NCBI RefSeq assembly: GCF_030013205.1
Contig: NZ_CP122648.1
Reading direction: 5' to 3' (one strand)
DNA length: 64,000 nucleotides
Origin: Escherichia coli
GTDB lineage: Bacteria > Pseudomonadota > Gammaproteobacteria > Enterobacterales > Enterobacteriaceae
The notes under the pieces were generated by a model. The model was given only the letters and a program-made list of their open reading frames with translations, had not been told where the DNA came from and did no database searches. Every line of letters begins with the position of its first letter. Within the stretch, counting starts at the first letter, position 1. Positions 9,595 to 9,723 of this stretch are shown one piece after another. Made by a program: the position numbers and the translations under genes.

Positions 9595-9723
9595 TCCCTT
9601 TGCCGGGAGCCTGTCGCCCGGCACTTAAATCTCTTTGGAAGGCGTCTCGCAATCTGCTGAATTTAGCGGTGAAGAGTGCACAGCCGTTGCCTATACTCCA
9701 GGCAGGAAACTGGAGGAAATCTC

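What the first reader, a model, noticed from the sequence alone, without database searches (positions are those of the whole stretch)
9595..9723. ahr and yjgR are adjacent; the idonate (idnRTODK) operon found here in K-12 appears absent
In K-12 as I recall the gene order (yjgR-idnR-idnT-idnO-idnD-idnK-ahr-leuX), about 6 kb of idonate catabolism genes separate yjgR and ahr. Here only about 130 bp separate them, consistent with variable gene content next to the leuX hotspot.
Basis: inference. Interest (0 to 1): 0.25.

Follow-up and report, generated by a model that had tools for sequence, protein, structure and literature searches.

The report
Idonate operon absent: common empty allele
This E. 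coli strain lacks the five-gene idonate (idn) sugar-acid operon that K-12 carries between ahr and yjgR; this is the ordinary, already documented majority state of the species (about 59% of complete genomes), not a fresh deletion.

Summary
In the window, ahr (8575-9594) and yjgR (9724-11226) are 129 bp apart.

- **Exact difference:** 90 bp (9595-9684) in the window stands where K-12 has 5,087 bp. Homology breaks at the ahr stop codon and 39 bp upstream of the yjgR ATG.
- **Frequency:** of 5,426 complete E. coli genomes, 3,212 have the window's junction, 2,051-2,055 have the idn cassette with K-12's junctions, and about 160 lack the ahr 3' end.
- **No scar:** I found no repeats, no IS remnant and no idn-derived sequence.
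- **Polarity:** the 90-bp spacer is conserved in idn-less E. fergusonii, E. albertii, Citrobacter koseri and C. werkmanii. Its yjgR-proximal part matches the yjgR upstream region of Enterobacter and Leclercia. The cassette has lower GC (47% against 54-55%). The window therefore appears to hold an old empty-site allele.
- **Other genera:** the idn+ allele has the same breakpoints in Citrobacter and diverges in step with its flanks.
- **Exchange:** flanking haplotypes do not track idn state, which points to homologous recombination inside the known leuX recombination hotspot.

Variable presence of idnODRKT is already published. Interest is low.

The parts
8295..8379 (-). leuX, tRNA-Leu(CAA). Its 3' end faces the integrase island at 1-8294, away from ahr.
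   Evidence: ARAGORN; Rfam tRNA; annotation of an identical genome
8575..9594 (+). ahr (yjgB), NADPH-dependent aldehyde reductase. Homology between the idn-less and idn+ alleles ends at its stop codon.
   Evidence: NF047908 equivalog, 550 bits; BLAST breakpoints; 98.5% identical to K-12 Ahr
9576..9591 (+). Four synonymous sites in the last 19 bp of ahr (9576, 9577, 9588, 9591). They track idn state perfectly in 13 sampled E. coli and are the only flank sites linked to the indel.
   Evidence: Variable-site table
9595..9684 (+). 90-bp spacer specific to the idn-less allele. It occupies the position where idn+ genomes carry the 5,087-bp idnK-idnD-idnO-idnT-idnR cassette.
   Evidence: found in 3,221 of 5,426 E. 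coli genomes; homologous in E. albertii, E. fergusonii, C. werkmanii, C. koseri and Escherichia sp. TW14182
9602..9622 (+). G+C-rich hairpin (GCCGGG, 9 nt, CCCGGC) just after the ahr stop, followed by a T-rich stretch. Inferred to be the ahr terminator.
   Evidence: MFE structure (z-score 0.12, not significant alone); stem conserved at the same place in 6 species with little covariation; not called by the consensus terminator scan
9627..9686 (+). The 60 nt upstream of the conserved TTGCCTATACTC block. Orthologous to the yjgR upstream region of Enterobacter cloacae and Leclercia; missing from idn+ alleles.
   Evidence: Same-register matches of 22-26 of 60 for five idn-less species (3 to 151 of 5,000 shuffles reach this) against 8-17 of 60 for idn+ alleles (chance level)
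9685..9723 (+). 39-bp yjgR-proximal block shared by all alleles and genera. Contains TATACT (9692-9697, -10-like) and GGAGG (9712-9716, Shine-Dalgarno).
   Evidence: BLAST breakpoint; alignment of 9 loci. Promoter role is inferred; the consensus scan found no full sigma-70 match
9724..11226 (+). yjgR, DUF853 / HerA-like C-terminal domain ATPase of unknown function.
   Evidence: annotation

Best explanation
**What it is.** The window carries the empty-site (idn-less) allele of a two-allele presence/absence polymorphism at the ahr|yjgR junction. Between the ahr stop codon and a conserved 39-bp yjgR-proximal block, a genome has one of two things: a 90-bp spacer (this window and 59% of E. coli), or a 5,087-bp cassette of lower GC encoding the GntII / L-idonate pathway (idnK divergent from idnDOTR; K-12 and 38% of E. 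coli).

**Polarity.** The spacer is not a remnant of a recent deletion. It is old intergenic DNA that provides a hairpin after ahr and the ancestral upstream region of yjgR. The cassette is the inserted state, and that insertion is itself ancient.

**How the alleles move.** Both alleles, with the same breakpoints, occur in Escherichia and in Citrobacter. Within E. coli they appear to move between lineages by homologous recombination in the flanking core genes, inside the known leuX recombination hotspot. No mobile-element machinery is involved.

**Functional consequence (inferred from K-12 genetics).** The strain should be unable to catabolise L-idonate or 5-ketogluconate and lacks the second gluconate kinase IdnK, while keeping whatever GntI functions it has elsewhere. 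Its yjgR would be driven only by its own upstream region, not by read-through from idnR.
For: **Shown**
- Breakpoints and the 90-bp against 5,087-bp replacement.
- Population counts: 3,212 contiguous junctions, 3,221 spacers, 2,055 cassettes, 2,051 each of K-12's left and right junctions, and about 160 genomes lacking the ahr 3' end.
- The same breakpoints separate C. werkmanii (idn-) from Citrobacter sp. FP75 (idn+).
- idn-less spacers in E. albertii, E. fergusonii, C. koseri and TW14182; idn+ in C. amalonaticus, in an unnamed enterobacterial contig (L098) and in Salmonella enterica.
- No similarity of the spacer to the cassette beyond chance.
- No direct or inverted repeats at the cassette ends.
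- Cassette GC is 47.3% against 53.8-54.8% in the flanks.
- The spacer's yjgR-proximal 60 nt matches Enterobacter and Leclercia in register; idn+ alleles do not.
- Cassette identity between genera (78-86%) parallels that of ahr, yjgR and lptGF.
- Flank haplotypes do not cluster by idn state. For example, K-12 (idn+) yjgR is closest to O157:H7 (idn-), and AZ147 has the window's ahr but an ST131-like yjgR.
- Linkage to the indel is limited to 4 sites within 19 bp.
- The same five-gene module sits in an unrelated context in Trabulsiella.

**Literature**
- idnODRKT is present as a block in 83% of pks+ and about 31.5% of pks- E. coli, and differs between ST95 clades (PMC8545132).
- idnK is absent in ST131 H30 and H22 but present in H41 (PMC5369007).
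- The idonate pathway is sporadic in Salmonella (PMC3158058).
- leuX is a recombination hotspot (PMC2617782).
Against: - The polarity argument rests on modest similarity: 22-26 of 60 matches, and the pairs are not independent.
- Only two outgroup genera support it, and both carry another cargo (a Dak-like gene) in the slot.
- The idn+ arrangement is itself as old as the Escherichia-Citrobacter-Salmonella split. This particular lineage may therefore once have been idn+ and then been converted to idn- by recombination; I cannot tell.
- Recombination-mediated exchange is inferred from mosaic flanks in 14 genomes, not from a tree-based analysis of the whole collection.
- The terminator and promoter roles are inferred. 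The consensus scans called neither and the hairpin is not energetically exceptional.
- Only 64 kb of the source genome is visible, so an idn copy elsewhere is excluded only statistically: the spacer, cassette and ahr-less classes sum to about the total, and idn occurs at one place per genome.
Confidence: 0.8

Rival explanations
1. Recent lineage-specific deletion: the ancestor of this strain had the K-12 arrangement and lost idnRTODK by a single deletion, leaving a scar in the spacer.
For: The idn+ arrangement is colinear and ancient in Escherichia, Citrobacter and Salmonella, so presence is not a K-12 peculiarity. Real deletions do occur at this locus: about 160 genomes lack the ahr 3' end (FCI56 and TW14182), and Salmonella has lost yjgR.
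Against: The 90 bp is not a subset of idn+ sequence, so a simple deletion cannot produce it. The identical spacer is shared by 3,221 genomes across phylogroups and by four other species. Part of it is orthologous to Enterobacter/Leclercia DNA that idn+ alleles lack. There are no repeats at the junctions.
Confidence: 0.05
2. Allelic conversion: the lineage was idn+ and became idn- (or the reverse in K-12) by importing the alternative allele through homologous recombination from another E. coli. This is loss by replacement rather than by deletion.
For: Mosaic flanks with breakpoints right at the junction. State differs within ST131 and within ST95. The leuX region is a documented recombination hotspot. 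The E. coli cassette is shallowly diverged (0.79% mean pairwise) compared with ahr (3.5%) and yjgR (4.6%) in the same strains.
Against: It cannot be distinguished from continuous inheritance of idn- in this lineage with the data in hand. It is compatible with the best explanation and nested within it, rather than an alternative to it.
Confidence: 0.3
3. The idn cassette is cargo of the leuX genomic-island system, gained and lost by integrase-mediated site-specific recombination.
For: It lies within 1.3 kb of leuX, a classical island integration site, and island content next to leuX differs in every genome fetched.
Against: The cassette lies on the 5' side of the tRNA, separated from it by the conserved ahr gene, whereas integrases and islands lie at the 3' end. 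It has fixed breakpoints, no att-like direct repeat and no integrase. Cassette state is independent of island content.
Confidence: 0.02

Closest known systems
GntII (subsidiary gluconate) / L-idonate catabolic gene cluster idnK-idnDOTR of E. coli K-12 (b4264-b4268)
   Same: It occupies exactly the slot that is empty in the window. Flanking genes, their orientation and the leuX neighbourhood are the same.
   Different: All five genes are absent here, and 90 bp of unrelated intergenic DNA stands in their place.
idn-less ahr|yjgR junction of most E. coli (for example O157:H7, ST131 O25b:H4, ETEC) and of E. fergusonii, E. albertii, C. koseri and C. werkmanii
   Same: Same breakpoints and the same homologous spacer: 95-100% identical within E. 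coli, and 43 of 60 matches to Citrobacter in the yjgR-proximal part.
   Different: Nothing of substance. The window is 100% identical across the junction to strains E2865 and JCM 5491.
Strain-specific segments between conserved backbone genes, as in the 'K-islands' and 'O-islands' of K-12 / O157:H7 comparisons (my recollection of Perna et al. 2001; not checked here)
   Same: A K-12 segment absent from O157:H7 that sits between conserved backbone genes.
   Different: I did not verify whether idn is on the published K-island list.
Alternative cargo in the same slot: Dak-like (dihydroxyacetone-kinase-like) gene between ahr and yjgR in Enterobacter cloacae, Enterobacter sp. Ag1 and Leclercia
   Same: Cargo sits between the ahr stop and the conserved TTGCCTATACTC block upstream of yjgR.
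   Different: A different gene, about 1.9 kb, on the opposite strand. It was named only from my reading of the 548-aa translation, not by a family search.

Membership tests
idn / GntII L-idonate operon carrier (K-12-type allele) | idnK, idnD, idnO, idnT and idnR orthologues between ahr and yjgR | tested here: not met
   BLAST breakpoints. tblastn of the K-12 Idn proteins finds only 21-33% identical paralogues elsewhere in the window.
idn-less (empty-site) allele of the ahr|yjgR junction | Contiguous ahr-stop / 90-bp spacer / 39-bp block / yjgR-ATG junction | tested here: met
   100% coverage match in 3,212 of 5,426 genomes; the spacer alone is in 3,221.
idn-less (empty-site) allele of the ahr|yjgR junction | Spacer homologous across species rather than lineage-specific filler | tested here: met
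   Aligned spacers of E. albertii, E. fergusonii, TW14182, C. werkmanii and C. koseri.
tRNA-leuX integrated genomic island (as an explanation of the idn indel) | Located at the tRNA 3' end, with an integrase and flanking direct repeats of the tRNA 3' end | tested here: not met
   The cassette is beyond ahr on the tRNA 5' side. No direct or inverted repeat of 8 nt or more lies within 80 bp either side of each cassette junction.
IS/transposon-mediated deletion scar | IS remnant, terminal inverted repeats or a target-site duplication at the junction | tested here: not met
   The spacer has no significant match to the cassette and is conserved in other species. No repeats at the cassette junctions. 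No Rfam hit in the spacer.
Ahr (NADPH-dependent aldehyde reductase, NF047908) | Score above the curated equivalog cut-off | tested here: met
   550.4 bits against a cut-off of 470.
YjgR (DUF853 / HerA_C ATPase) | Full-length orthology to K-12 YjgR | tested here: met
   98.4% identity over 97% of the length. PF05872 HerA_C is recorded on homologues. No NCBIfam model reaches its cut-off.
Intrinsic (Rho-independent) terminator, for the 9602-9622 hairpin | G+C-rich stem-loop followed directly by a U-tract | tested here: inconclusive
   The stem is conserved in 6 species. However, the consensus scan finds no site, the fold z-score is 0.12, and the T-tract is interrupted in E. coli.

The most novel reading that the evidence does not exclude
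The ahr|yjgR slot is a very old trans-genus presence/absence dimorphism. Both the empty allele and the idn allele, with identical breakpoints, predate the split of Escherichia, Citrobacter and Salmonella. They have either persisted through several speciation events or been exchanged between species long ago. Recombination has eroded linkage to within about 20 bp of the indel, and flanking genes carry about twice the usual diversity, as expected near a long-maintained polymorphism. Within E. coli, cassette diversity relative to lptGF-pepA in the same strains (0.79% against 2.13%, ratio about 0.37) is close to the cassette's frequency (0.38). That fits neutral expectation for an allele class of that size (my inference).
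Probability: 0.4. Interest if true: 0.35.

Novelty: already known. Interest (0 to 1): 0.12.

Why it matters
It matters little for discovery. The idn (GntII) genes are a recognised accessory block in E. coli pangenome studies (PMC8545132, PMC5369007, PMC4216125), and their absence here is the majority state.

Practically, it predicts that this strain, which matches porcine ETEC / O139:H1 genomes, cannot use L-idonate or 5-ketogluconate and has only one gluconate kinase. It also shows that K-12 is the minority reference at this locus.

The modest added value is the exact anatomy:
- identical breakpoints in Escherichia and Citrobacter;
- an empty allele that keeps ancestral DNA;
- linkage confined to about 20 bp.

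This makes the locus a clean small example of a long-lived gene-cassette polymorphism shuffled by homologous recombination inside the leuX hotspot.

Tried and rejected
1. **Deletion-scar search.** Local alignment of the 90-bp spacer against the K-12 and Citrobacter FP75 cassettes, with shuffling controls. K-12 is not significant (19 of 100 shuffles reach the score). One FP75 hit reached 1 of 100, but it lies inside idnD and is absent for C. werkmanii, so I treated it as chance.
2. **Apparent idnK-start remnant.** An apparent match of the spacer to the idnK start region, and a hybrid 'intermediate' allele in strain MLI104K2, looked like a scar. That interval is full of long homopolymer runs and is unique to one genome, so I rejected it as an assembly artefact.
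3. **Shared 9-mer.** CTTTGCCGG occurs at the left end of the spacer and at the right end of the K-12 cassette, and a similar string occurs in Enterobacter Ag1. It is suggestive of microhomology, but it was noticed post hoc, is not conserved in Citrobacter, and does not fit a simple insertion or deletion topology. It is left unexplained.
4. **Consensus scans.** The promoter and terminator scans of 9400-9900 returned nothing.
5. **Rfam.** Nothing in the spacer.
6. **Repeats at the cassette ends.** None of 8 nt or more.
7. **Flank clustering by idn state.** Rejected.

Full report
**Observation**

The window is E. coli chromosome around leuX.
- ARAGORN finds tRNA-Leu(CAA) at 8295-8379 on the minus strand.
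- The ORF ending at 9594 is Ahr (NCBIfam equivalog NF047908, 550 bits against a cut-off of 470).
- The ORF from ATG 9724 to 11226 is YjgR (98% identical to K-12 YjgR).
- lptG, lptF and pepA follow.
- The ahr-yjgR intergenic stretch, 9595-9723, is 129 bp.

MG1655's own annotation gives yjgR-idnR-idnT-idnO-idnD-idnK-ahr-leuX.

**Exact anatomy of the difference**

BLAST of the window against the reverse-complemented K-12 locus gives two blocks:
- window 8294-9594 matches K-12 4496490-4495190, ending exactly at the ahr stop codon;
- window 9685-11243 matches K-12 4490102-4488544, starting 39 bp upstream of the yjgR ATG.

Between them, the window has 90 bp (9595-9684) and K-12 has 5,087 bp containing idnK, idnD, idnO, idnT and idnR. 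This is a replacement, not a clean insertion or deletion. No idn orthologue occurs elsewhere in the 64 kb.

**How common each state is**

Counts among 5,426 complete E. coli genomes:

| State | Genomes |
|---|---|
| Window's contiguous junction | 3,212 |
| 90-bp spacer | 3,221 |
| idn cassette (1,973 of them at least 99% identical to K-12) | 2,055 |
| K-12 left junction | 2,051 |
| K-12 right junction | 2,051 |
| No match to the ahr 3' end | about 160 |

- The roughly 160 genomes without the ahr 3' end account for the remainder. FCI56 is an example, with ahr mostly deleted.
- There are thus two sharply defined alleles: about 59% empty and about 38% idn.
- Both occur in several lineages. idn- includes O157:H7, ST131 O25b:H4, ETEC and bovine or porcine strains. 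idn+ includes K-12, BL21, CFT073, UTI89, APEC O2:K1 and some STEC.
- Published pangenome work reports the same picture:
  - idnODRKT behaves as a block, present in 83% of pks+ and about 31.5% of pks- genomes, and differs between ST95 clades (PMC8545132).
  - idnK is absent in ST131 H30 and H22 but present in H41 (PMC5369007).
  - idonate genes are enriched in HUS-associated STEC (PMC4216125).

**Is the spacer a deletion scar?**

I found no evidence that it is.
- The spacer has no similarity to the K-12 cassette beyond shuffled controls. The single nominal hit to the Citrobacter cassette lies inside idnD and does not replicate.
- The K-12 cassette ends carry no direct or inverted repeats of 8 nt or more.
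- There is no Rfam family in the spacer.
- One genome, MLI104K2, looked like an intermediate. Its interval is homopolymer junk unique to that assembly, so I discarded it.

**Other species**

| Slot state | Taxa |
|---|---|
| Empty, with homologous spacer | E. albertii, E. fergusonii, Escherichia sp. TW14182 (ahr also truncated), C. werkmanii, C. koseri |
| idn cassette, same gene order | Citrobacter sp. FP75, C. amalonaticus, unnamed enterobacterial contig L098 |
| idn next to ahr, yjgR deleted | Salmonella enterica (a 27-nt yjgR 3' remnant remains) |
| Dak-like gene (about 1.9 kb) | Enterobacter, Leclercia |
| Same five-gene idn module in an unrelated context | Trabulsiella |

The breakpoints in C. 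werkmanii against FP75 are the same as in E. coli: the ahr stop, and 39 bp before the yjgR ATG. The idonate pathway is reported as sporadic in Salmonella (PMC3158058).

**Polarity**

- All arrangements share a block, TTGCCTATACTCCA..GGAGG..ATG, immediately upstream of yjgR.
- In the 60 nt upstream of that block, the five idn-less spacers match Enterobacter and Leclercia in the same register at 22-26 of 60 positions. Between 3 and 151 of 5,000 shuffles reach these values.
- The three idn+ alleles match at 8-17 of 60, which is chance level.
- The cassette is 47.3% G+C against 53.8-54.8% for its flanks.

Together these results suggest that the empty allele retains ancestral yjgR upstream DNA and that the cassette is the inserted state. 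This inference rests on modest similarity and on only two outgroup genera.

**Age of the alleles**

Cassette identity between genera parallels that of the flanks ahr, yjgR and lptGF:
- E. coli against Citrobacter: 78-81%;
- E. coli against Salmonella: 78-79%;
- FP75 against C. amalonaticus: 83-86%.

The idn+ allele therefore seems to have co-diverged with its hosts rather than spread recently between genera. Both alleles look at least as old as these genera. I cannot separate persistence of the polymorphism through speciation from ancient inter-species exchange.

**Exchange within E. coli**

I compared 14 E. coli genomes plus E. albertii.
- ahr and yjgR differ by 2-6% between strains, against 0.3-3% for lptG-lptF-pepA.
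- Their haplotypes do not cluster by idn state. K-12 (idn+) yjgR is closest to O157:H7 (idn-). AZ147 has the window's ahr (0.2% different) but an ST131-like yjgR.
- Only four synonymous sites, in the last 19 bp of ahr (9576, 9577, 9588, 9591), track idn state. No yjgR-side site does.
- Among six idn+ strains, mean pairwise divergence is 0.79% in the cassette, 3.5% in leuX-ahr, 4.6% in yjgR and 2.1% in lptGF-pepA.

This is the pattern expected if the two alleles are swapped by homologous recombination in the flanks. Touchon et al. 2009 identified the leuX region as one of two major hotspots of phylogenetic incongruence in E. coli (PMC2617782). The idn indel itself is not a leuX-integrated island: it lies beyond ahr on the tRNA's 5' side, whereas the integrase island occupies window 1-8294 on the 3' side.

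**Function (inferred)**

- From what is known of the K-12 GntII system (my knowledge of Bausch et al. 1998, not read here), the strain should lack L-idonate and 5-ketogluconate catabolism and the IdnK kinase.
- The spacer provides a G+C-rich hairpin (9602-9622) right after ahr. It is conserved in position in six species, but it is not statistically exceptional and was not called by the consensus scan.
- In idn+ genomes, idnK ends 3 bp from ahr and idnR ends 77 bp from yjgR. Termination of ahr and the upstream context of yjgR therefore differ between the alleles.

**Verdict**

The observation and interpretation are correct. The feature is an ordinary, already documented accessory-operon polymorphism, and the window carries the majority allele. 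The only mildly interesting extension is that the dimorphism, with identical breakpoints, appears to be very old and is shared by Escherichia and Citrobacter.

Noticed in passing
window 1-8294: The leuX island here is 100% identical to porcine ETEC and O139:H1 genomes (for example ETEC4067, W13-16). Its leuX-adjacent 'site-specific integrase' is unusually long (ORF 6294-8246, minus strand, 650 aa; annotated as 636 aa) and hits no NCBIfam model. The island also carries a small recombinase, an AbiJ-like gene and a NIPSNAP-family gene.
   Followed up: partly
window 8575-11226 (ahr, yjgR): ahr and yjgR are 2-6% divergent among E. coli strains, about twice the level of neighbouring lptG-lptF-pepA, with mosaic haplotypes. 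A tract in yjgR (about 9906-9975) is E. albertii-like in strains K12a_DK, FDAARGOS_1372 and TCM_B_2, regardless of idn state.
   Followed up: partly
window 11227-11344: The yjgR-lptG spacer is also a replaced segment. It is 118 bp with a CCCTCTCCCC...GGGGCGAGGGG palindromic repeat here, against 160 bp with a REP-like element in K-12. Both versions occur among the sampled genomes.
   Followed up: partly
L095 (FCI56); L103 (Escherichia sp. TW14182): About 160 of 5,426 E. coli genomes lack the ahr 3' end. In FCI56 and in Escherichia sp. TW14182, ahr is truncated from the leuX/island side while yjgR and part of the spacer remain.
   Followed up: partly
L096 (Salmonella enterica GCA_024595915.1) 3304-3521: Salmonella has the idn cassette next to ahr but has lost yjgR. 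A 27-nt remnant of the yjgR 3' end and REP-like elements lie between idnR and lptG.
   Followed up: partly
L083 (E. coli MLI104K2) 8959-9886: The ahr-yjgR interval of this RefSeq 'complete' genome is about 930 bp of long C/G/T homopolymer runs with fragments of idnT and idnR. It is probably a consensus or polishing artefact, and it produced spurious CDS calls.
   Followed up: yes
L005 8217-9863; L006; L007: Enterobacter and Leclercia carry a 548-aa gene between ahr and yjgR on the opposite strand. I judged it dihydroxyacetone-kinase-like from the translation. The same slot therefore holds different cargo in different genera.
   Followed up: partly
window 9598-9606 and K-12 L001 (just upstream of the shared 39-bp block): The 9-mer CTTTGCCGG sits at the left end of the idn-less spacer and at the right end of the K-12 idn cassette. 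A similar string lies upstream of yjgR in Enterobacter sp. Ag1. It could be microhomology or chance and remains unexplained.
   Followed up: partly
window 15380-15551, 43186-43263, 49426-49504; 32894-33009; 14352-14546: Rfam gathering-threshold hits elsewhere in the window: four naRNA4 (REP-derived) copies, two of them in the pepA-holC spacer, whose length varies between strains; a Mg2+ riboswitch (mgtA leader type); and a Ysr276 antisense match inside pepA.
   Followed up: no
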